IMG/VR virus record: IMGVR_UViG_3300028914_000001 | Location: 189,489-253,488 of that record | DNA: 64,000 bases | Reading direction: 5' to 3' (one strand) | Source: a virus | Taxonomy: Duplodnaviria > Heunggongvirae > Uroviricota > Caudoviricetes | Part shown: positions 6,771 to 55,889 of the stretch, in pieces | Layout of the letters: each line of letters begins with the position of its first letter | Numbering within the stretch: position 1 is the stretch's first letter | Made by a program: the position numbers and the translations under genes | The notes under the pieces: generated by a model | What the model saw: only the letters and a program-made list of their open reading frames with translations | Database searches by the model: none | Told to the model about the DNA's origin: nothing

Positions 6771-8270
6771 TTAATATAGAATCTCTACCGCCTCTACTGG
6801 CTTTTCCTTCTTCTGCCGTTGTTGAGGCTGAGGCTGAGGCTGCTGCAGCGGAGGTTGTTGTGCCTGAGGCTGGGGACCTCGATACTGGTTCCTCTGTTCA
6901 AACTCTTCCTGCAACATCGATTCCTTTTGGATACTCTCGATAAGTTCCATATCCTCGGGGTCAATATCGCTGAGTCGCATGTGAGGCCAATCGACCTTTA
7001 CATTGAACTGAACATCAGCCGAGCCCATTCGGTTCTTGCTAATCGTCACGCACAGGAACCCTGCCTTTTTCAAGGCAACGTCACGAACGATGATGTAGTA
7101 GAAGTCCACCGTATCGCCAAGACCCATGGAACCTGATGTCTGGTCCATGCCGATATCCTTCATGCGGTAGCCAGCTCGTTGCATCTGCGTTCCCGTCAAG
7201 ATAGCCATATCCCTGTTGACGGCCATGTTTCTCAACTGTTCTGCGGCATACAAGATTTTCTGGTAACTGCCTTCATGCGGACTGTATGTACCCGCATTCG
7301 GGCTCATGATACCAATGTAGTCAACAACCAAGAAGTCAATCTTGACCCCTTCCAGCTGTTCCAATTCGGAAAGATAAGCCTCGATGTCATCAGGTGTAGT
7401 CTTACGGGTAGGCATCCAGTTGATGTACAAGTTACCAGGAGTGGCGAGTTCCGGGGCATGGGAATCTTGAAGTCTGACAATAACTTCCTCATCGTCCATC
7501 TTAGCGATGTCATAACGAGACACATCAAGAATAGCGCTTGTGACACGTTCCCAAATCTTCGCCGCATCAAGTTCAAGGCTGATATACACCACGTTGTAAC
7601 CGAGCGTGGCAGCAAATGCAGCCTCGTTAACCATGAACATCGACTTACCACCGCCAGATGTACCGCCAACAAGGCTTAGGCACTTGCGGAAATAACCACC
7701 ACATGTTCCCTGTGCATCAGGGGTTTCGCTTGTAAACCGTCTTATCGCCTCAATCTTAGATGGAATACTCTTTTCCATGCTACCAAGTCTTGCCTTAGCA
7801 GCCCTGGCATCACGAATATAATGTATACCCATGTTAGTATTAAGCCGGAAGTTTAGCGCATCCTGCAACTTCGGCATAATCCCACGCATGGCGGTCGGGT
7901 CCTTGCCATGCATGTGGAGGGCGTATTCTTCCATCAATCGTTGGGATACCTGAAACTTGAAATAATTTTCAATGGTCTCTTTCTTTATGTCAGGAGCGAT
8001 TACCCCAATAGGCTTCGTAATCTTTAAGAGCTGTTCCTTCGCCTCGTCACTATATCCGGGATTCTGGTTCAGACCAGTAACAAGTTCTTGGGCAGTCGGG
8101 TAACGACTATATTTCCGATGAAACGCATTAACAAGATGAACAATCTGCTTATTCGCCTTATCATCGAAATATTCTTCTTTCATCTTGTCAGTGATACGTA
8201 AACGGACATTTTCATCCTCAAAGAAGCATCTCAGGACATAATCTTCATCACTCAAATCCGCTACTATCAT
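6771..8270 (-). CDS. gp41: replicative DnaB-family helicase, T4 gp41-like
   Basis: Walker A GTSGGGKS, SLEL, VVDYIG, TQMQR, KNRMG; Q-rich C-terminal tail. Confidence 0.92.
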   Translation of the reverse strand: MIVADLSDEDYVLRCFFEDENVRLRITDKMKEEYFDDKANKQIVHLVNAFHRKYSRYPTAQELVTGLNQNPGYSDEAKEQLLKITKPIGVIAPDIKKETIENYFKFQVSQRLMEEYALHMHGKDPTAMRGIMPKLQDALNFRLNTNMGIHYIRDARAAKARLGSMEKSIPSKIEAIRRFTSETPDAQGTCGGYFRKCLSLVGGTSGGGKSMFMVNEAAFAATLGYNVVYISLELDAAKIWERVTSAILDVSRYDIAKMDDEEVIVRLQDSHAPELATPGNLYINWMPTRKTTPDDIEAYLSELEQLEGVKIDFLVVDYIGIMSPNAGTYSPHEGSYQKILYAAEQLRNMAVNRDMAILTGTQMQRAGYRMKDIGMDQTSGSMGLGDTVDFYYIIVRDVALKKAGFLCVTISKNRMGSADVQFNVKVDWPHMRLSDIDPEDMELIESIQKESMLQEEFEQRNQYRGPQPQAQQPPLQQPQPQPQQRQKKEKPVEAVEILY

Positions 8271-8306
8271 ATTACACCTTAACGTTAGTTATTTCATCAA
8301 TATATA

Positions 8307-8335
8307 AAGATACATTATCAACAAATCTTTGGCAA
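8307..8335 (-). promoter_or_regulatory. sigma70-type promoter for gp41
   Basis: TTGCCA-N17-TATCTT. Confidence 0.5.
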
Positions 8336-8338
8336 GAG

Positions 8339-8376
8339 AAAAAACCAGGCGGAATTACAAATATCCGCCTGGTTTT
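8339..8376 (-). terminator. intrinsic terminator after uvsX
   Basis: AAAACCAGGCGGA...TCCGCCTGGTTTT inverted repeat. Confidence 0.75.
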
Positions 8377-8391
8377 AATTAGGTATTTCTG

Positions 8392-9648
8392 TTACTTAAC
8401 GCCCTTAGCAGCGATTTCAGCAGCAGACTCTTCCTGCACATCCTCGATTTCATCACTGATGTTCTTCGGGGTGGCAGCAGCTTCTTCCTTCAACTTGCTC
8501 TTGCGGGCCTTTTTCTTGGTGACTTCTTCCTCGCTGAGCGGAGCTGGCATCTCACCAACAAGGTCTTTCGCAAAGAGAGACACGTCGTACATGTAGTTCT
8601 TGGCGATGTAATCAAGGAACTTCTGGTCCGTCATGAGCGGTTCCATAAATTCCCTTGTATTGCATTCGTCAGCATCGTCGTCCGTCCAACGGAATTCACG
8701 GAGAAGTTCACCCGTTTCCTTGTCGATATCGTAATCAGGACGATGGAGGAATGTACCCTTGTTGCCCTTCGGCGTTACAACCGCAACGCCAGCAGCGATT
8801 ACGTCATCGACCAATCCGTACCAGCGGTCGATACCGCCGTTCGTAAGGATACGGTATTCGCACTTACGGTCTTCCATACCGTCACGTCCCTTCTTAATCT
8901 GGGCGGTAACAATCTTACCAATCTTGGACGAACCAGATTCCTGCTTTTCCTTCGACTTGTAAGCTCTTCCAGTCGTACAAACAAGCACAATAGCATCGCT
9001 GTTGAAATACAGTTCGCAACCACCAGGGATATTCTTCGGGTCCTTGTACTGTTCGAGGGAGTCGTAAACGTGGTTGATGATAAGGGCGGTGAACTCGGCT
9101 GCGTTAATCAGCTTGGCAAGTTCGTTCTTCTTGATGGCGGTCTGACCCATGTCAGCCGTCGGCTTGTCCTTACCCGTCTGCTTGTCGATAGCCTCGACAC
9201 GCTGCAAGGAAACAAGCGGGCCCCAAGAGTCGAACAGGAGGAACACTTCATGACGTTCCTTACGGGTCAATCCCTTCTGGGCATTCGTTACAAATTCATT
9301 GATTTGGTGGATATACTTAGATTCAAACACCACGATGTCGTCAGTATTCACGCCGAGACGCTGTGCCAACTTAAAGTTGAATGCGCCTTCCGAGGACACG
9401 ACAAGGCAGTCCATCCCTGCATGATACGCACTGGCGAGGTAATAAAGGCCGATAAGGGACTTACCCATTGTTGACGGGGCTGCGATTTCCGTCATGTGGC
9501 CTTTCTTGATACCGTGGTTCAGCATACCGCTGAAAAGGATGTCAAGAACTGGGATTCCAGAACCAATGTATTCGACTGGTTCATTCTTGGTAATAATGTT
9601 TTCTGCGAAGGCTTTGTTTGCCTTCAGCCTGTCTGTCAATTTAGACAT
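8392..9648 (-). CDS. uvsX: RecA-like recombinase UvsX
   Basis: APSTMGKS, FDSWG, NHVY, PGGCELYF; start moved to MSKLTD, which follows AGGAG. Confidence 0.9.
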   Translation of the reverse strand: MSKLTDRLKANKAFAENIITKNEPVEYIGSGIPVLDILFSGMLNHGIKKGHMTEIAAPSTMGKSLIGLYYLASAYHAGMDCLVVSSEGAFNFKLAQRLGVNTDDIVVFESKYIHQINEFVTNAQKGLTRKERHEVFLLFDSWGPLVSLQRVEAIDKQTGKDKPTADMGQTAIKKNELAKLINAAEFTALIINHVYDSLEQYKDPKNIPGGCELYFNSDAIVLVCTTGRAYKSKEKQESGSSKIGKIVTAQIKKGRDGMEDRKCEYRILTNGGIDRWYGLVDDVIAAGVAVVTPKGNKGTFLHRPDYDIDKETGELLREFRWTDDDADECNTREFMEPLMTDQKFLDYIAKNYMYDVSLFAKDLVGEMPAPLSEEEVTKKKARKSKLKEEAAATPKNISDEIEDVQEESAAEIAAKGVK

Positions 9649-13206: not shown

Positions 13207-16200
13207 ATGTTTACGACCCTTCAAAAGGAATATGCTATACTGTTCTACATCCGTTATAAGCTAGGGCAAGAAGACAACAACGGCTTCTTGCATGAACTGT
13301 ATACTGAAAAGAATGTCAAAAGCATTCTTGAAAAGCTGGTAAACAACAAGACTAAGGACACTTCGACTATCAGTACCGAGCAGGTCGTTGAAAGAGTATT
13401 GCCATCCGTCAACATAGACACCTTGACCAACCCGAGAGCAACACACCCTAAATTCAACGTCCTTCCATACAACCCGGTAAGCTTCATGGAACTCTACATG
13501 GGTAAAACGATAAACAACGTGCTGATGAATATGAAGGAGAGGATATTCGTAGACGACATTACGGATGCAAAGGACGGCATGGCCGCATATTTTGTATCGA
13601 TATTTTCTCGAAATATGATGGTTAACGATAATTTTGCGAAATTTGCAACCATCGAACAACATCCATCAGCAGATAAAATCGTCCATACGCTCCGCACGCA
13701 ATTCCCGGACTCCTACCTTGCAAATGATACCGAAGCACTATCCAAGTATGCCACCCAGATGGTTCGGGAAAACTTCACCCACAAAGATTTGGGTACAGTA
13801 ATCATGTACCTCCAAAAGAAATTCGGAAACTCGCTCAACAGAACATCTATCGTCAATGCTATCGCAAGTGCCTCCAAGTATAAAGAAAATGATGATGACA
13901 CCACGTTCGATGAAATTCGAGACACTGCTGAAGAAAGCACGATGGCAATGGTGCAATCGACATCTAGCATAGACAACATGTTCAAAACCTCGGCAAAGTA
14001 CAGGTTCTCTGGAACCATGAAATACAAGAGAGGGGCGAAAGATTCCAGCGGAAATACCGCACCTAACACAATCGAGCTCAGTTTAAGAAAGCAGGATATG
14101 GAAGGCAAACTACATATAGACTGCTTTACCCAATTCATCACCGTCCTAAACAAGCTTCTTCACCTTGAAGGACTGCCCGGAGTAAATACGAGCCAATATA
14201 ATAGCCTGAACACAGTACTGCTCTCAGAGGAACAGTACCACGCACTATTCCCGGAATACTTCGTTACTGTCGGAATCCTTAAAACTAAGGAGAAGACAGC
14301 TTCAGAAATGGGCACCACCACGATGAAAAGCGGTGACGAATCAACGAACATTATCGACCGTTATACTGGCGAGGACGAAGACAAATATGACAGCGAGGAT
14401 GAAGAAACATACGACTCTTCCGTTCTTACCCTCGGAAAGACCAAAAAACTTATGCTGGCAAAGATGCTGGCAACACTTAATGGACACCCGGAAACTGTCC
14501 CGGACCAAATCGAATCGGCAAAAGGAAAGAAATCCGCTATTTACGAACTGAACCGTATTTTCATCACGGAATTATTCAACTCCCCATATCCCACAATACA
14601 GGCGTTGGTCGGCTTCCTTACGCATGACGAACTTCCGCCAGATATGGAATCCCATGACGACGAGCTGTTCATACTCAGACAGAAATACCTTAAAGACAAT
14701 GCGGAGGACGCAAAAGTATTTGGTGAACGAGACACCAATGTCAAGGCATTCGCTACCGTACTTAGCGAACTCTCAAAGGCCGCACATATGGGCCCAAACG
14801 ACAGATTGCCGTCACAGAATATCGTCATTTCCAACGGAGCCAATCAATACGTACTGACTGGATTGCCTAGCGTAGTTAACGCAATGGTAGCGCATGCAAT
14901 CAAGGGACAATACATTGACGGGATAACGGTCACAAGCAAAAATCCTATATACGACGCAATCAACTTCCTCATCAAATCCAATCTGCTCCGCAAAAACGGA
15001 AAAACTTACGTACTTGTAACAGACGCAAACCAAATAAACAGTGTCGTAGACTCGCTTCCATGGAAACAGCTCGAAACCCTTCATCACACGATGATGGTAA
15101 CTGCCCTTCACAACTGTTCGTACCTCTACAAGCAAAACGGCTGGGTTAAAATGACTCCCCAGGAAAGTTCACGGCACGAGTACGAGAAAATCAAGGATGA
15201 CGCCAAGACTAAGGATGATTTTTACTTCACAGGAAAACTTGTCAAGATTATGGAATCCGTCCAAGGAAATGTCAAACCATATTTTGACGACCTGAGAGAC
15301 ATCAACGATGTTATCGCCCGCATCAAAATGGATTACGGCATAACAAGCGTAGAACCAGCACAAGCCCCGACGGTTGACGAAAACACCCTTTCGGTTAACG
15401 ACCGTGTAATACAGATGTTCAGCACAGACGATTCTTCGGAAGCTATCGACAGCCTTTCCCAAGATTACTATCTAAGAAGTGTCGAAAGCAAGTACGAGGA
15501 AATCGTTGACAAAAAGTGCAAGGAAGTTACCGCCGCACTCAGGCAGAACAAGCACCTTGACGAGGACACCAGAAAAGCCCTTATCAGGAAGTTTGGCCAT
15601 GTCGGCGGGAAAACCAAGATAATCAACAGGGTATTCGACGGTGTCAAGAAGTCAGCATCAGGTAACGTCGCAGAGAAATTCAACAAGCAGGACGAACAGA
15701 GGATGTTCCAGATTGCACAAGATGTAATCCGGCTCTACAACTTCGTCCGAAACGACGTTGAAAAACATAACCCGACGATTGCAAAAGAATTTCCGCAAAC
15801 CCGCCAGTATGTCCAATCAGCAGACCTCGACACTATGTCAAAGGGCCAGAGCCTAACCGGGAAGAACTATATCGAAAATGGCTCTGCCGTAGACAAAGAC
15901 TTTTTACTGAACGCATACCTCATTGATGTACTTTTCGAGACCATATACCTCATGACCATCCTCTTCGACCTCCCGGCACGAACCGAGTACAGCGTACAGG
16001 ATATCATGCAAATGTCCGACGTGTCTGAAATGATACGCTATATCAAGGAAAACATGAATATCGCCATGGAAGGCAACATGGTCTACACTCAGCTCCTGAC
16101 TGCAATCAAGAGAAAGTCTAACATACTGTTCAATTCTCCGATGTTGAATATAATCATCGCAGTCATGTTGAGCAATCCTGACCTGAAGCAGTTGAGCGTC

Positions 16201-47457: not shown

Positions 47458-47694
47458 ATGATTATCGCTAAATACAAGAGAAACAACATTTCCGAATATC
47501 AGAACATCTTCGAAAAAATCGGAATCTTCATTGCCAACCAGATTCTTCGCCTCATGGCTGACTTCAAGCTATACAGCATCGAGGCGAACACGTTCAATGT
47601 ACGTGTTATCGTATGGGTAATCATCTTCATGGTTCCCATAATGCTGATGCTTGGAATCGCCATGATAGCCTGTCTCAAATTTATCTTTTTCTAA
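47458..47694 (+). CDS. small membrane protein
   Basis: C-terminal hydrophobic helix. Confidence 0.6.
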   Translation: MIIAKYKRNNISEYQNIFEKIGIFIANQILRLMADFKLYSIEANTFNVRVIVWVIIFMVPIMLMLGIAMIACLKFIFF

Positions 47695-47724
47695 ATCGAG
47701 TATACCAATTTCAAAGGAGAAAAC

Positions 47725-48033
47725 ATGAACGTCAATCTGAGTAAACGTGAAATCATCGACATGATTAAGTCCGTTCCCGTATCTTATGGAAGATACACGA
47801 AGGAATTGAATGAAGCAGGTGCGTGGGAGTTTAACATGGACGGCCCAACTCATTTCGTCTGGAATGTCACCGTGCTTCTTACAAAGACAGAAGAATACCT
47901 CTACGAGTTCTACCAAAAACTATATCGTGGCGACTACTATTTGCCTGACGAAGAAATAGATTATACTCCGAAACCAGTGGAATTGCCTCTCCTGAGGCGA
48001 ATGTTTCCCGTGCTTAAACCGATATCGGTATAA
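47725..48033 (+). CDS. small protein ending in a capsid-protein-like peptide
   Basis: RBS AAGGAG; LPLLRRMFPVL versus LPLVRRQFPDL in the major capsid protein. Confidence 0.7.
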   Translation: MNVNLSKREIIDMIKSVPVSYGRYTKELNEAGAWEFNMDGPTHFVWNVTVLLTKTEEYLYEFYQKLYRGDYYLPDEEIDYTPKPVELPLLRRMFPVLKPISV

Positions 48034-48050
48034 GCATTGTCGCTTCCAGT

Positions 48051-48449
48051 ATGGAAACTTTGTATAACGCATACGACATGTACACATTGCAGGCCTGGAT
48101 GATGTTTCTTCCAGGACTGCTTTTAATAGTATTCCTGCTAGCGGTGTATATCGCACTGAAATACTATGCCAAGCGCACTACTACGAAAATCGACATTGAC
48201 GAGGCAATAAGCGACCATTGCTTTGTACTCGTCGATTTTAAACACGGGAAGTTTCTCGGTGAATACAATGACGAGCGGTATGGAGATTTTGTCGATGACC
48301 CGAGATACGCCTTCAAGTGGCTGTCCAAGAGGAGTGCAAAGGATGTGTGCGATGAATTGAACAGGAACCGAGGTTGGGAGCTGGAACCAATCACTATTTT
48401 AGAAGCCATGGTTATATGGCGGGACAAGAGACAAAAGGAAGGTACATAA
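48051..48449 (+). CDS. membrane-anchored hypothetical protein
   Basis: N-terminal TM helix. Confidence 0.65.
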   Translation: METLYNAYDMYTLQAWMMFLPGLLLIVFLLAVYIALKYYAKRTTTKIDIDEAISDHCFVLVDFKHGKFLGEYNDERYGDFVDDPRYAFKWLSKRSAKDVCDELNRNRGWELEPITILEAMVIWRDKRQKEGT

Positions 48450-48739
48450 TGGATAACAAAGACTCTGCACTAAACCTTATTCATGCCCGAATGATGCTTC
48501 AACATATTAACAACAAGCTTGAAGAGTATATCGGAACCCCCATTGGCCAGGATGCGGAGATGGCATCTATCGAACGGTATTTGCAGTCGGTAACAATGTC
48601 TATGGTTCAGAAAATCGACCCGGAGGCCACTACTGATGTGAGGATGCCTCGTATTAGCGAAGGCGGACGAACCATAGACTGCAACATAACTACCAGACAC
48701 CCAGAAAAATTTGGTATAAGTCTTGACATCGCTCGTTAA
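48449..48739 (+). CDS. small protein, weakly like a tail-sheath C-terminal domain
   Basis: TAATG-coupled; LEEYIGTP...IERYL...IDCNITTRHP. Confidence 0.55.
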   Translation: MDNKDSALNLIHARMMLQHINNKLEEYIGTPIGQDAEMASIERYLQSVTMSMVQKIDPEATTDVRMPRISEGGRTIDCNITTRHPEKFGISLDIAR

Positions 48740-48751
48740 ATTTTCTATAAT
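48723..48751 (+). promoter_or_regulatory. consensus sigma70 promoter
   Basis: TTGACA-N17-TATAAT. Confidence 0.85.
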
Positions 48752-48756
48752 ATGTG

Positions 48757-49015
48757 ATGGAAGGTTTTTCAGGCTGGTACCTGGAAGGCCGCCGAGCAAA
48801 GGAATCTGATGCTTTTCCTTATAACGGTAAGGGATTCTCAGAAAAAAGGCTGAGTTCGGAACAGCTCGTTAAACATTGCCGGACGGGGACCGTGACCCGT
48901 AGCACGGAGGCAAGCCATTTCGCCACAGGACTTGGCCGCCATCCCGTTACCCAACACCATGGGATGTATGGCATGGGGGTTCTCAGAGTCGACGCTGGGG
49001 ACCCCTTTCGTTTTT
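48757..49015 (+). ncRNA. candidate structured ncRNA (~260 nt)
   Basis: Consensus promoter, multiple hairpins, terminal hairpin plus U tract, no credible CDS. Confidence 0.55.
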
Positions 49016-49475
49016 AAAGTTTTTTGAAAAGAAGTTTCAGCTGCTCGGTTGAGTGAGGAGACAGGGTGAATCCCTGATGTTCCCAGTAACTACGGGCATC
49101 ATCGTCGAACGCCATCAGGGTTATGTACTGACACTCGTGCTGTCGTGCGTACTTGAATACATAGTCCAACATCGTGTTTGAAAATCCGTTACCTTGTGCA
49201 TCAGTCGCCACTTCGAACTCATAGAGGTGAAGATTTCTGGTTGTCTTTTCTTCGACATCGGCACAGGCAAGTCCGATAATCACATTCATGCTTGTGAATA
49301 CCATCCACTCGCCGTTATACCCCATCGTCTTTGCGTTGTCCATGATTTCTTCAGGGGTCTTGCCTTCGATGTTGCTTTCGTCCTTTTCGTAACAAATCAT
49401 CGGAAATCTCTTGATGGTATCCATGTTGGACAAGAGTTCCTTTACTTCTGCTGGGCTGTATAACTTTACTTCCAT
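49014..49475 (-). CDS. GNAT acetyltransferase
   Basis: FEVATDAQGNGFS, ARSYWEHQGF. Confidence 0.8.
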   Translation of the reverse strand: MEVKLYSPAEVKELLSNMDTIKRFPMICYEKDESNIEGKTPEEIMDNAKTMGYNGEWMVFTSMNVIIGLACADVEEKTTRNLHLYEFEVATDAQGNGFSNTMLDYVFKYARQHECQYITLMAFDDDARSYWEHQGFTLSPHSTEQLKLLFKKL

Positions 49476-54260: not shown

Positions 54261-55889
54261 CTAACCTGCTTCAACAGTGTTGATGGCTATCATGGTGTCG
54301 CTGAAATTAGTCTTTACTCCGAACATTCCTTTGTCACCTTTGTCGTACAGGGCGAAGTAGAAGGAATATATAGTTTCCTTGTTCGGGTGAATAAGGTCGG
54401 ATACAAAGGTTTTGTACTTGCTTGATGTATGGTAAGTAAAGTATAGGCGGCCATTCATCATTCCCCAGTCAAACCATACTTCACCCTCGGGTATTACCGT
54501 ACCGTCAGGCAGCGTAGTTTCGTCATTGCTGAGGTACTGGAATATGGTATCACCTGGGGTATCCTCGACAAACTGTATCGTCGCCTTGAACGTATATGAC
54601 GACTCGATGTCGCCGTTTGCGTTGTCGCCAAACCAGTTGAGAATCTTGCTCCAATCGACGTCATCCTCCACCGCATACCCGCCTTCGACTTCCTGACCAT
54701 TTCCGGGAGCGATGTTCGGAATGAACTTTCGTGTATCGTCGTTGACGGCAACGAAGTCACGCCCGAATCCGCTAAGGTCGCTCTCGTGAGAATTATCGTA
54801 GTCGAAGTTGAAGCGGAGAAGGTCGAACGACGGGACTTCCGAAGGTTTCGTGATGTCCTCCGTCACCGATTCGCAATAGGTGTAAACGGGAATGCCGTTG
54901 GCATCAAAATCTTTTGGAAGAATCTTGTAGTCGGTATTGGGGTCATCATACGGAAGACCTTCCGTATCCTTGTTGTATTCGCCGATATCACAGCGTTTCA
55001 AACCTTCGTGGTAAGTCGTTGTTGTGAAACGGTCGAACAGGAGCAACTGTTTTAGCGATACATCCTCGTAATACTTGCTGCCGTCCGCATCCTGTTTCTG
55101 CATAAGAGTCGTCGACAGCGTGTGTAGAATAGAGTATCCTTCCCTGATGGTCGGGCACACTGTTTCCCACAGCTTTTTCTTCTGCTGTATGATTTCGCTC
55201 GGGTAGACGAGTAGCTGTTCCTTGTGGATTAGGTCCTCGTCGATATTGAAGTTCATCTCGGCGTACTTAATCATCTCTGGGGTCTCGTACGGCCTGTGGT
55301 AAACACCGTAGCAGTCAATAGGATAACTCACCTTGAAAATCTGTTGCTGTGCGTCTGAGTCAGTAACATCTTCGTTCAACTCTGTCGTGTTGCTGCTGAT
55401 GACTACTTGAACAGGCCTAGGAATTTCCGGGGCGAAGTCCCACTCCTTAATGACTATTGTCCTGTATTCATTGAAGTACGGCTCGATGTTCTCCTTTATC
55501 TGGAAGATATCGGAGATGTTGTCAGCCTGAAATTGCAATTCAAAGTGGAATACATACGGGGTCGGCTGGATGTCACGAATCCATCGGTCGGCTGACCTAC
55601 AGAAAATCTCCCTCGCATAGGTAGGCTGCGGTCTGTTGGTCGAGTCTGGGCTGTTGCTCACGAACCTGATTGACCCTATTGGATAGGGAACGGTTAGCTG
55701 CTTATACTGCGTGCTGGACCAGAAGTTGGTAAAATTGGCATTGTTGTGGGTGATGATGGGAATTTTTGCACTTCTTGAGTATGTAGTACGATACATGTCG
55801 TCGTATTTGTTGACATACATGTTATTGAACATGTCTATCAGTCCAATAAGGATTTTCTCAATAGTTCGTACGTAGTAAAATGGTCTCAT
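54261..55889 (-). CDS. gp15: tail sheath stabiliser/terminator, T4 gp15-like, with C-terminal extension
   Basis: FYY.RTI...DMFNN...KIPI; PTPYVFHFEL...DIFQIKENIEPYF. Confidence 0.75.
   Translation of the reverse strand: MRPFYYVRTIEKILIGLIDMFNNMYVNKYDDMYRTTYSRSAKIPIITHNNANFTNFWSSTQYKQLTVPYPIGSIRFVSNSPDSTNRPQPTYAREIFCRSADRWIRDIQPTPYVFHFELQFQADNISDIFQIKENIEPYFNEYRTIVIKEWDFAPEIPRPVQVVISSNTTELNEDVTDSDAQQQIFKVSYPIDCYGVYHRPYETPEMIKYAEMNFNIDEDLIHKEQLLVYPSEIIQQKKKLWETVCPTIREGYSILHTLSTTLMQKQDADGSKYYEDVSLKQLLLFDRFTTTTYHEGLKRCDIGEYNKDTEGLPYDDPNTDYKILPKDFDANGIPVYTYCESVTEDITKPSEVPSFDLLRFNFDYDNSHESDLSGFGRDFVAVNDDTRKFIPNIAPGNGQEVEGGYAVEDDVDWSKILNWFGDNANGDIESSYTFKATIQFVEDTPGDTIFQYLSNDETTLPDGTVIPEGEVWFDWGMMNGRLYFTYHTSSKYKTFVSDLIHPNKETIYSFYFALYDKGDKGMFGVKTNFSDTMIAINTVEAG

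What the first reader, a model, noticed from the sequence alone, without database searches (positions are those of the whole stretch)
48723..49015. Consensus sigma70 promoter driving a ~260-nt structured, apparently non-coding RNA
Seen: a perfect TTGACA-N17-TATAAT is followed by stems TTCAGG/CCTGGA (~48768-48785), TTCCTTAT/GTAAGGGA (48815-48834), CTCAG/CTGAG (48837-48854), TGCC..ACGGG/CCCGT..GGCA (~48877-48912) and CATCCC/GGGATG (48940-48966). A terminal GGGGTTCTCAG/CTGGGGACCCC stem ends in TTTCGTTTTT. The 87-aa ORF has no RBS and its stop lies at the far end of the terminator U-tract. I saw no tRNA, tmRNA or RNase P hallmarks. Inference: an abundant early phage ncRNA, for example a protein sponge, antitoxin mimic or anti-defence RNA.
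Basis: partly seen in the sequence, partly recalled or inferred. Interest (0 to 1): 0.72.

Follow-up and report, generated by a model that had tools for sequence, protein, structure and literature searches.

The report
New folded RNA gene in giant phages
A 422-kb T4-like phage from ruminant gut metagenomes carries a stand-alone gene for a roughly 255-base non-coding RNA that matches no catalogued RNA family and whose function is unknown.

Summary
A 12/12 TTGACA-N17-TATAAT promoter (48723-48751) and a strong intrinsic terminator (48975-49015) bracket about 259 nt.

It is a non-coding RNA gene, not a protein.
- I collected 17 distinct alleles from related phage contigs, 59-98% identical to the window.
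- The 86-aa ORF survives in only four of them. Indels are 1-2 nt, variable columns are not enriched at codon position 3 (18/14/9), and codon variants run 15 non-synonymous to 3 synonymous.

Covariation supports eight helices. 23 of 57 pairs change on both sides (shuffles 10.2 ± 2.1; 0 of 500 reach it). One hairpin stem is fully rewritten while its loop is kept. A pseudoknot and loop-loop contacts are likely but rest on invariant complementary bases.

It refutes one, and one is not conserved.

The gene is accessory. It lies in three genomic contexts, each with its own promoter and terminator, and is missing from a complete close relative.

Nothing matches in Rfam 15, the phage collection, E. 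coli genomes or 185,000 bacterial genomes.

Function is unknown. My best guess (about 0.4) is a trans-acting RNA that binds a protein through its fold. The sponge and anti-defence ideas remain untested.

This scan had noted the same stretch once before, in an overlapping window of this genome and not on other DNA.

The parts
48723..48751 (+). Sigma70-type promoter: -35 TTGACA (48723-48728), 17-nt spacer, -10 TATAAT (48746-48751). An A/T-rich stretch (GAAAAATTT) lies upstream at about 48704-48712.
   Evidence: Scores 12/12. It is one of two such sites in the genome. The -10 is invariant in the 14 sequences of alignment A7, and the -35 is TTGACA in all but one of them (TTGATA in L003). L126 and L134 carry TTGGCA/TTGCTA-N18-TATATT instead.
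48757..49015 (+). Predicted transcript of about 255-259 nt. The start is inferred at A48757 to G48759; the 3' end lies in the U-tract.
   Evidence: This is the span matched end to end by covariance models R1 and R2 in all 17 alleles. GC is 54% against 46.5% for the genome.
48763..48790 (+). P1 hairpin: GGUUUUUCAGG (48763-48773) pairs with CCUGGAAGGCC (48780-48790). The loop CUGGUA has UGG invariant and the following U in 16 of 17 alleles.
   Evidence: The helix is kept in all alleles through U-G to C-G or U-A changes, a shifted bulge, and two pairs changed on both sides.
48793..48801 (+). Invariant junction CGAGCAAAG. Its CGAGC is complementary to GCUCG at 48864-48868, a candidate pseudoknot.
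   Evidence: Invariant in the 16 aligned sequences of A9. The complementary pairs are standard in 16-17 of 17 alleles. There is no variation, so the pairing is unproven.
48805..48844 (+). Long hairpin P2b + P3. P2b is UCUGA (48805-48809) with UCAGA (48838-48841 plus 48844). P3 is UUCCUUAU (48815-48822) with GUAAGGGA (48827-48834). The apical loop is AACG, followed by G48827, the first base of the 3' strand.
   Evidence: P3 has 5 of 8 pairs changed on both sides in L126/L134, while the loop consensus A-R-C-G-G is kept. P2b has 2 pairs changed on both sides.
48842..48853 (+). Hypervariable linker including the A-run 48842-48847. Its length varies by 1-2 nt.
   Evidence: The A-run is 6, 5 or 4 nt among close alleles, and the sequence is unrelated in distant ones. 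This is what breaks the ORF.
48854..48884 (+). Hairpin P4': GUUCGG (48854-48859) pairs with CCGGAC (48879-48884). The loop carries the near-invariant AACAGCUCGU-AAA (48860-48873).
   Evidence: Pair 48859/48879 changes G-C to A-U in 7 alleles, 48855/48883 changes U-A to G-C in 2, and 48856/48882 changes U-G to C-G in 7. 99% of cells are paired. This replaces the earlier CCGAGC/GUUCGG prediction, which is broken at two pairs in 5 alleles.
48885..48907 (+). Candidate H-type pseudoknot. S1 is GGG (48885-48887) with CCC (48896-48898). S2 is CCGUG (48890-48894) with CACGG (48903-48907). The 3' linker is 4-6 nt and hypervariable.
   Evidence: S1: all three pairs vary and all cells pair, with two pairs changed on both sides in 7 alleles. 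S2 is invariant and complementary in 17 of 17.
48909..48940 (+). P7 three-segment hairpin: GGC/GCC, GCCA/UGGC and UC/GA. The apical loop is variable.
   Evidence: Three pairs change on both sides and 96.7% of cells are paired. The apical loop GCCACAG is replaced in L126/L134.
48950..48963 (+). P8 hairpin: CCCA (48950-48953) with UGGG (48960-48963). The loop carries ACCA (A in 16 of 17 alleles, then CCA invariant), complementary to the P1 loop UGGU.
   Evidence: Two pairs change on both sides and 100% of cells are paired. The loop-loop complement is standard in 16-17 of 17 alleles.
48975..49015 (+). Intrinsic terminator and 3' hairpin. The stem is 48975-48986 with 48995-49006, the loop holds the palindrome GUCGAC (48988-48993), and the tail is UUUCGUUUUU.
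   Evidence: z = -3.07. Five stem pairs change on both sides. The loop palindrome is kept in 16 of 17 alleles and becomes GUAUAC, still a palindrome, in L118.

Best explanation
**Shown**
- 48757-49015 is an autonomous gene for a non-coding RNA of about 255 nt. Strong purifying selection acts on its sequence and on a multi-helix fold: P1, P2b/P3, P4', S1, P7, P8 and a 3' terminator hairpin.
- The gene is accessory and moves between places in the genomes of related T4-like jumbo phages. The contigs come from bovine and other ruminant-associated metagenomes.

**Inferred, step 1.** Host sigma70 RNA polymerase transcribes it straight after infection, from a promoter of the same perfect-consensus class as the phage's tRNA operon. 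It would therefore behave as an abundant stable RNA.

**Inferred, step 2 (my choice, about 0.4).** It acts in trans through its three-dimensional fold as a ligand for a protein, either as a decoy or inhibitor of a host factor or as the RNA subunit of a small RNP. The contacts would be the invariant single-stranded elements:
- CGAGCAAAG
- AACAGCUCGUUAAA
- ACCGUG...CACGGAGG
- CAUCCCG
- UGUAUG-CAUGG
- the A-R-C-G-G loop of P3

These stay fixed while the stems that present them are rewritten. The palindromic 3' loop and the complementary UGGU/ACCA loops suggest that it may work as a dimer or a compact kissing-loop fold.
For: **Transcription unit.** The promoter and terminator are confirmed. Only two 12/12 promoters exist in 422 kb, this one and the one heading the tRNA array. 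Every allele has its own promoter and terminator, including those in different genomic contexts.

**Non-coding.**
- The ATG-frame ORF is cut to 29-42 aa in L091, L118-L122 and L126. In five other alleles only a 68-aa frame from an internal start is left. In two more, L003 and L004, about 25 codons are read out of frame.
- Variable columns by codon position number 18/14/9, against 44-58% at position 3 in the flanking genes.
- Codon variants are 15 non-synonymous against 3 synonymous.
- No gene was called in the gap in L118-L124.

**Constraint.** The RNA body is 97-99% identical between phage clades whose flanking genes are 76-78% identical. The terminator, at 83%, changes by compensation.

**Structure.**
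- On the model-fitted alignment A11, 94.4% of cells are paired and 23 of 57 pairs change on both sides (shuffles 10.2 ± 2.1; 0 of 500 reach it).
- The covariation score is 0.306, against 0.165 ± 0.009 for shuffles and 0.04-0.07 for slid controls.
- An independent MAFFT alignment already gave 0 of 500.

**Trans action.**
- In the window the next gene is convergent.
- There is no complementarity to the phage genome beyond chance: best hit 26.3 bits against a shuffle mean of 27.5.
- The invariant elements sit in loops and junctions.
Against: - There are no expression data, no known host and no identified partner.
- Folding-energy z-scores of the RNA body are unremarkable.
- The strongest covariation counts come from an alignment fitted to the model, which leans towards that structure.
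- The effective number of independent lineages is small, about six.
- The pseudoknot, the CGAGC/GCUCG pairing and the loop-loop contact rest on invariant complementary bases, which neither prove nor disprove pairing.
- Columns 123-125 of the alignment can also pair with the 3' segment UGG (old P4). One compensatory change there in L118 is contradicted by a U-U mismatch in L126, so part of the fold is unresolved.
- Nothing distinguishes protein binding from ligand binding or catalysis.
Confidence: 0.4

Rival explanations
1. The fold is an aptamer or a ribozyme. The RNA binds a small molecule (for example as a sponge for a host signalling nucleotide) or catalyses a reaction, without a protein partner.
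For: The RNA has a compact multi-helix fold, a likely pseudoknot and many invariant junction nucleotides. That conservation pattern is typical of riboswitch aptamers and ribozymes, on established knowledge. It is a stand-alone unit with no gene to regulate in the window.
Against: No known aptamer or ribozyme family matches, even at E <= 10. There is no expression platform, and no conserved cleavage-site motif is recognisable.
Confidence: 0.15
2. It is a base-pairing regulator. One or more invariant single-stranded segments pair with host mRNAs, or with a host sRNA as a sponge, to reprogramme the cell early in infection.
For: It has sRNA-like architecture: its own promoter, an intrinsic terminator with a U-tail, and an A-rich linker. 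Invariant unpaired stretches of 9-14 nt could serve as seeds.
Against: Conservation spans almost the whole 215-nt body rather than one seed. Complementarity to the phage genome is at chance level. There is no match, sense or antisense, in E. coli genomes. The host is unknown, so host targets could not be searched.
Confidence: 0.15
3. It is a self-assembling RNA. The molecule forms homodimers or higher oligomers through the palindromic 3' loop (GUCGAC) and the complementary UGGU/ACCA loops, and the assembly itself is the functional object. ROOL, GOLLD and phi29 pRNA are precedents.
For: The palindrome is kept in 16 of 17 alleles and changes to another palindrome, GUAUAC, in L118, while the stem below it is rewritten. 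UGGU and ACCA are complementary in 16-17 of 17 alleles, in the loops of covarying stems. RNA-only homo-oligomers held by kissing loops are documented for rumen- and phage-associated RNAs (PMC12286853).
Against: There is only one palindrome-preserving change. Invariance of the loops could equally reflect protein contacts or an intramolecular kiss. The RNA is much smaller than ROOL or GOLLD.
Confidence: 0.1
4. The unit acts in cis. The strong promoter plus terminator would serve as an insulator, as a source of convergent transcription against the GNAT operon, or as a substrate for antitermination like the lambda pR'-tR' '6S' transcript. The RNA product itself would be irrelevant.
For: The unit converges on the GNAT gene and shares its 3' end. 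The architecture resembles the lambda pR'-tR' transcript, on my own knowledge. In L134 a radical-SAM gene follows on the same strand.
Against: A by-product RNA would not be conserved nucleotide for nucleotide, nor keep eight helices by compensation. The unit occurs in three contexts with different downstream genes, and in L134 the downstream gene has its own promoter.
Confidence: 0.06
5. It is a leaderless mRNA for an 86-aa protein that starts at the ATG at 48757.
For: The ATG sits at about the predicted transcription start and the frame is open to 49017. Gene callers produced four protein clusters from this ORF.
Against: The frame is broken or shifted in 13 of 17 alleles. The stop is lost in L004 and L005. 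Substitutions are not enriched at position 3 and are mostly non-synonymous. The stop lies beyond the likely 3' end of the RNA.
Confidence: 0.02
6. It is a decaying pseudogene or a DNA-level element such as an origin or a protein-binding site, not an RNA gene.
For: The frameshifted ORF could look like a dead gene. The GTCGAC palindrome could be a DNA site.
Against: A pseudogene would diverge faster than its neighbours, not about four times slower. Changes that preserve pairing, including G-U wobbles that make sense only on the + strand RNA, argue for RNA. The promoter and terminator are conserved everywhere.
Confidence: 0.03

Closest known systems
Large 'ornate' orphan RNAs of phages and gut or rumen bacteria (ROOL, GOLLD; also raiA, OLE)
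   Same: They are complex folded non-coding RNAs of unknown function, often carried by phages and in rumen metagenomes. They form assemblies through kissing loops (PMC12286853). Here too there is a many-helix fold, invariant loops and a palindromic loop.
   Different: Those RNAs are 200-800 nt with their own Rfam models, none of which matches here even at E <= 10. This RNA is a separate, smaller family of about 255 nt and eight helices, so far seen in only about 20 contigs.
Stable RNAs C and D (species 1 and 2) of phage T4 (from my own knowledge; sequences not to hand)
   Same: They are small stable RNAs of a T4-type phage with no known function, made alongside the phage tRNAs. Here the RNA shares its promoter class with the tRNA operon.
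   Different: The T4 RNAs are processed out of the tRNA operon transcript and are shorter. This one is a stand-alone promoter-to-terminator unit about 128 kb from the tRNA array. No sequence comparison was possible.
phi29 packaging RNA (pRNA) (from my own knowledge)
   Same: It is a structured phage RNA of about 170 nt made from a strong early sigma70-type promoter. Here the complementary loops are UGGU and ACCA.
   Different: pRNA serves the phi29-type packaging motor, whereas T4-type phages package with terminase and need no RNA. There is no sequence or structural homology. The loop pairing here is untested and may be intramolecular.
Protein-sequestering RNAs: 6S RNA, Y RNA/YrlA, CsrB/RsmZ
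   Same: They are abundant, structured, trans-acting RNAs that work by binding a protein, which is the mechanism I favour. The phage also encodes a Ro60/TROVE protein.
   Different: None of the defining features is present. There is no 5'/3' closing stem with a central bubble (6S), no Ro-binding terminal helix or tRNA-like module (Y RNA), and no array of exposed GGA loops (CsrB). There are no Rfam hits. A close relative has the Ro gene but lacks this RNA.
Candidate structured RNAs predicted in bulk from IMG/VR (Fremin et al. 2023, PMC10690425)
   Same: The data source is the same (IMG/VR contigs) and so is the kind of object. This RNA may be among the 10,006 unnamed candidates.
   Different: The supplementary lists are not held, so this could not be checked. 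No name, structure or function for this RNA was found in the literature searches.

Membership tests
Any Rfam 15 family (6S, Y RNA/YrlA, tmRNA, RNase P, SRP, ROOL, GOLLD, HEARO, riboswitches, ribozymes) | A covariance-model match at or near the family's gathering score | tested here: not met
   The best hits are U7 at 13.9 bits (gathering 34) and other chance hits with E > 1, for both the window allele and the most divergent allele. A whole-genome scan finds only tRNAs.
Stand-alone bacterial-type ncRNA gene | Its own sigma70-type promoter and intrinsic terminator, conserved in homologues | tested here: met
   The terminator stem covaries.
Stand-alone bacterial-type ncRNA gene | A discrete transcript is observed | not testable with these tools
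   No transcriptome data are available for this uncultured phage.
Structured RNA | Base pairs maintained by compensatory substitutions beyond controls | tested here: met
   23 of 57 pairs change on both sides. Covariation is 0.306 against 0.165 ± 0.009 for shuffles and about 0.06 for slid controls. A MAFFT-based count also gives 0 of 500.
Protein-coding gene / leaderless mRNA | The reading frame is conserved, with an excess of third-position and synonymous change | tested here: not met
Type III toxin-antitoxin antitoxin RNA (ToxI-like) | Tandem repeats of a short unit upstream of an endoribonuclease toxin gene | tested here: not met
   No internal repeat appears in the alignments. The neighbours have no Pfam or PHROG nuclease hit, and the neighbours differ between contexts.
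Riboswitch or cis-regulatory leader | Sits upstream of, and on the same strand as, a regulated gene, with an expression platform | tested here: not met
   The next gene in the window is convergent. The downstream genes differ in the three contexts and are separated from the RNA by a full terminator and their own promoter.
CsrA/RsmA-sequestering RNA | Multiple conserved GGA motifs exposed in hairpin loops | tested here: not met
   Read directly from the alignments. The GGA in the junction is lost in L004 and L119-L122. The ACAGGA in the apical loop of P7 is lost in L118, L126 and L134. The other GGA motifs lie in stems.
Guide RNA of an RNA-guided nuclease, or retron ncRNA | An adjacent or co-occurring TnpB/IscB/Cas or reverse-transcriptase gene, and a variable guide segment | tested here: not met
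   G000 has no RVT_1 hit and no TnpB zinc-ribbon hit.

The most novel reading that the evidence does not exclude
This would be a previously undescribed class of compact, pseudoknotted phage RNA. It is carried as a mobile one-gene cassette and made at stable-RNA levels at the start of infection. It would work as a self-associating particle (a dimer through the palindromic 3' loop, closed by a UGGU/ACCA loop-loop contact) that captures or inhibits a host factor. That would make it an RNA-based takeover or counter-defence device with no protein component of its own.
Probability: 0.2. Interest if true: 0.8.

Novelty: new variant of a known kind. Interest (0 to 1): 0.6.

Why it matters
Phage genomes are annotated almost entirely by their proteins. 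Very few phage-encoded RNAs with a complex fold are known, and fewer still have a known function.

This candidate is cleanly delimited. It has its own promoter and terminator, a covariation-supported fold and a clear presence/absence pattern among close relatives. That makes it directly testable by expression, probing, pull-down, and deletion or complementation.

If it binds a host factor or self-assembles, it would add an RNA-only tool to the known repertoire of phage takeover and counter-defence. If it proves to be a ribozyme or an aptamer, it would be a new class.

The main limits are that the phage is uncultured and its host is unknown.

Tried and rejected
- **Leaderless 86-aa protein.** Rejected on frame loss, codon-position pattern and the non-synonymous to synonymous ratio.
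- **Known RNA families.** Rfam gave nothing at permissive thresholds on two alleles and on the whole genome. ARAGORN found nothing in the window.
- **Similar DNA elsewhere.** No match in the phage collection or in E. coli genomes. Exact 19- and 21-mers found nothing in 185,579 bacterial and archaeal genomes.
- **Antisense to the phage's own genes.** Complementarity is at chance level.
- **First consensus fold from ten close alleles.** P2 (CCGAGC/GUUCGG) and P5 (GACGGG/CCCGUU) are broken in the divergent alleles and were replaced by P4' and S1. P4 stays unresolved (see evidence against).
- **Functional link to neighbours.** The 96-aa and 132-aa proteins co-occur with the RNA in the main context. 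The 96-aa gene is absent from G021, where the RNA's neighbours are different genes, and L134 shows a third set of neighbours. The GNAT gene persists in relatives that lack the RNA. The AlphaFold model of the 96-aa protein was too poor to use, with pLDDT 58.
- **Link to the phage Ro60 protein.** The close relative G001 has the Ro gene but not the RNA.
- **RT or TnpB partner.** None in G000.
- **Chance pattern hits discarded.** L090, L092, L093, L095, L117 and L130.
- **Host rRNA mimicry.** This could not be tested beyond the E. coli search.

Full report
**Setting.** The window is bases 189489-253488 of a 422,150-bp viral record with direct terminal repeats. GC is 46.5% and there are 38 tRNA genes. 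Earlier notes of this scan, and the gp23-type capsid gene, mark it as a T4-like jumbo phage. One related contig is labelled 'bovine metagenome'.

**Observation.**
- A 12/12 TTGACA-N17-TATAAT promoter lies at 48723-48751. A terminator with a 12-bp stem plus TTTCGTTTTT lies at 48975-49015.
- The region scan as a whole finds no more promoter-like sites than shuffles do, but this site is special. The phage's roughly 75 early promoters read TTGACA-N17-TATATT (11/12). Only two sites in the whole genome are 12/12.
- The second 12/12 site sits about 390 nt upstream of the tRNA array and shares the TTTCTATAAT context. Both perfect promoters therefore head ORF-less stable-RNA units.
- There is no tRNA or tmRNA and no Rfam family at E <= 10. 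A full-genome Rfam scan finds only tRNAs.
- Folding energy is unremarkable for the RNA body (z = -1.71 overall; -1.6 and -0.84 for the halves). It is significant only for the terminator, at -3.07.

**Homologues.** I found relatives by four routes:
- the protein database, through the spurious ORF (loci L002-L006);
- exact and gapped DNA patterns in IMG/VR and JGI metagenomes (L007-L009, L088-L094, L126);
- anchoring on the upstream 96-aa protein (L118-L124);
- anchoring on a neighbour of L126 (L134, L135).

This gave 17 distinct sequences, from 98% down to 59% identical to the window. Six pattern hits were chance matches and were discarded.

**Not a protein.**
- Indels are 1 or 2 nt. The A-run at 48842-48847 is 6, 5 or 4 nt long.
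- From the ATG at 48757 the frame runs 85-98 aa in only five sequences (four distinct). In two of those four, L003 and L004, about 25 codons are read in another frame. Elsewhere it stops after 31-37 codons.
- In the divergent alleles the longest ORF on the RNA strand is 29-42 aa, and gene callers called nothing there.
- Across ten alleles the variable columns fall 18/14/9 on codon positions 1/2/3. In the neighbouring genes 44-58% of third positions vary.
- Where the frame is shared, 15 codon variants are non-synonymous and 3 are synonymous.

**Constraint.**
- Two phage clades have flanking genes only 76-78% identical, yet their RNA bodies are 97-99% identical.
- The terminator, at 83%, and the promoter spacer do vary, and the terminator varies by compensation.
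- A recently transferred cassette would not show this. The pattern is purifying selection on the transcribed body.
- Some exchange also occurs. The L003 and L004 alleles are more divergent than their flanks.

**Structure.**
- With only the ten close alleles there was too little variation, and the first consensus fold was partly wrong. The divergent alleles changed that.
- Model R2 aligned all 17 sequences. On that alignment 57 nested pairs are 94.4% paired, and 23 pairs change on both sides (shuffles 10.2 ± 2.1; 0 of 500 reach it).
- The covariation score is 0.306, against 0.165 ± 0.009 for shuffles and 0.04-0.07 when partners are slid by 1-3 columns.
- That alignment is fitted to the model and leans towards it. 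The plain MAFFT alignment of 15 sequences gave the same verdict: 0.161 against 0.113 ± 0.007, 0 of 500.
- Every helix has at least two pairs changed on both sides: P1, P2b, P3 (five of eight pairs rewritten in L126/L134), P4' (48854-48859 with 48879-48884), S1 (48885-48887 with 48896-48898), P7, P8 and the terminator.

**Likely tertiary contacts.** All three rest on invariant complementary bases, so they are suggestive only:
- S2 (CCGUG/CACGG), which crosses S1 to give an H-type pseudoknot with a hypervariable third loop;
- CGAGC (48793-48797) with GCUCG in the P4' loop;
- the UGGU loop of P1 with the ACCA loop of P8.

The terminator loop holds the palindrome GUCGAC in 16 alleles and GUAUAC in L118. 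The palindrome is kept by a double change while the stem beneath is rewritten.

- Two are confirmed: the P1 core and P3.
- One is confirmed only in its core: the GGG/CCC part of ACGGG/CCCGT.
- One is not conserved: CTCAG/CTGAG.
- One is contradicted by covariation: CATCCC/GGGATG, replaced by P8.

**Distribution and context.** The RNA is single-copy in this genome.
- **Main context.** It follows a 132-aa membrane protein and a 96-aa protein and converges on a GNAT acetyltransferase.
- **Absent from close relatives.** A complete close relative (G001; capsid 94% identical) lacks the RNA and both small proteins. It has a different 2.7-kb insert between the same flanks. A 91%-complete relative, G007, also lacks it.
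- **Deletion variant.** L125 is a deletion variant without the RNA and without the adjacent GNAT gene.
- **Second context.** In G021 (355 kb, 93% complete, capsid 69% identical) the RNA lies among other genes, and the 96-aa gene is absent.
- **Third context.** In L134 it lies upstream of a radical-SAM gene.

Each copy brings its own promoter and terminator. It therefore behaves as an autonomous accessory cassette in a variable genome region, not as part of a fixed operon.

**Function.** Nothing computational settles it. These options were excluded or made unlikely:
- antisense control of phage genes;
- a guide or retron RNA, since there is no reverse transcriptase or TnpB in G000;
- a type III antitoxin, since there are no repeats;
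- a CsrA sponge, since the exposed GGA motifs are not conserved;
- a riboswitch or leader, since no regulated gene is fixed downstream.

The phage does encode a Ro60/TROVE protein, but G001 has that gene without this RNA.

In this RNA nearly all the unpaired nucleotides are invariant while the stems are freely rewritten. That pattern fits an RNA whose fold presents fixed contact surfaces. I therefore favour a trans-acting protein ligand, decoy or small RNP (about 0.4). The alternatives are an aptamer or ribozyme (0.15), a base-pairing regulator of host RNAs (0.15) and a self-assembling RNA (0.1). Cis-acting, coding and DNA-level readings are minor.

**Novelty and score.**
- No catalogued family matches, and no paper found names this RNA. 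It may be among the unnamed bulk predictions of PMC10690425, which I could not check.
- It is a new RNA family of a known general kind: orphan structured RNAs of phages.
- Interest is 0.6. The candidate is solid and experimentally tractable and has an unusual conservation pattern. Against that, the family is narrow, the phage is uncultured and the function is unknown.

Noticed in passing
G000 genome 102.5-103.9 kb, minus strand (locus L103 about 7500-8900); outside the window: A Ro60/TROVE-domain gene (PF05731, 40 bits, 451-aa frame) sits inside the tRNA array. Next to it are two 'tRNA' model hits of 134 and 139 nt with 65-71-nt inserts in the anticodon loop (L103 8649-8782 and 8342-8480), which ARAGORN does not call. 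Between them is a third tRNA-like unit: acceptor GCCGAUG/CAUCGGC plus a T-arm around about 110 nt. These are candidate Y-RNA-like partners of the phage Ro. G001 also has the Ro gene.
   Followed up: partly
G000 genome 110616 to 110200, minus strand (L103 15201-15616): The only other 12/12 sigma70 promoter in the genome heads the tRNA array. It is followed by about 390 nt without a convincing ORF before the first tRNA, which could hold another processed stable RNA.
   Followed up: partly
G000 genome 321054, 322450 and 325871, + strand (outside the window): Each of these early-type promoters (TTGACA-N17-TATATT) is followed within a few bases by a short hairpin and a T-run.
   Followed up: no
Loci L016-L020, L024, L025 and G001 198125-200743 (capsid gene of relatives): In several relatives the match to this phage's 616-aa capsid protein spans about 2550 nt instead of about 1850. 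In G001 it is split into two pieces about 750 nt apart with an in-frame TGA. This points to an insertion, an intron or similar element, in the major capsid gene that this window's copy lacks.
   Followed up: no
window 47694-49069, against G001 (L012): The block holding the 102-aa, 132-aa and 96-aa genes and the RNA is replaced in G001 by an unrelated 2.7-kb insert between conserved flanks. The 102-aa gene is found elsewhere in G001 (61% identical). This is a hot spot of gene turnover.
   Followed up: partly
window 48449-48739: The 96-aa protein upstream of the RNA has no Pfam or PHROG hit. The single-sequence AlphaFold model is poor (pLDDT 58).
   Followed up: partly
G014 14552-14755 and 167254-167460; G015 55250-55453: TnpB-type (Cas12f1-like zinc-ribbon) ORFs of 378-470 aa occur in the clade-B relatives but not in G000.
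   Followed up: no
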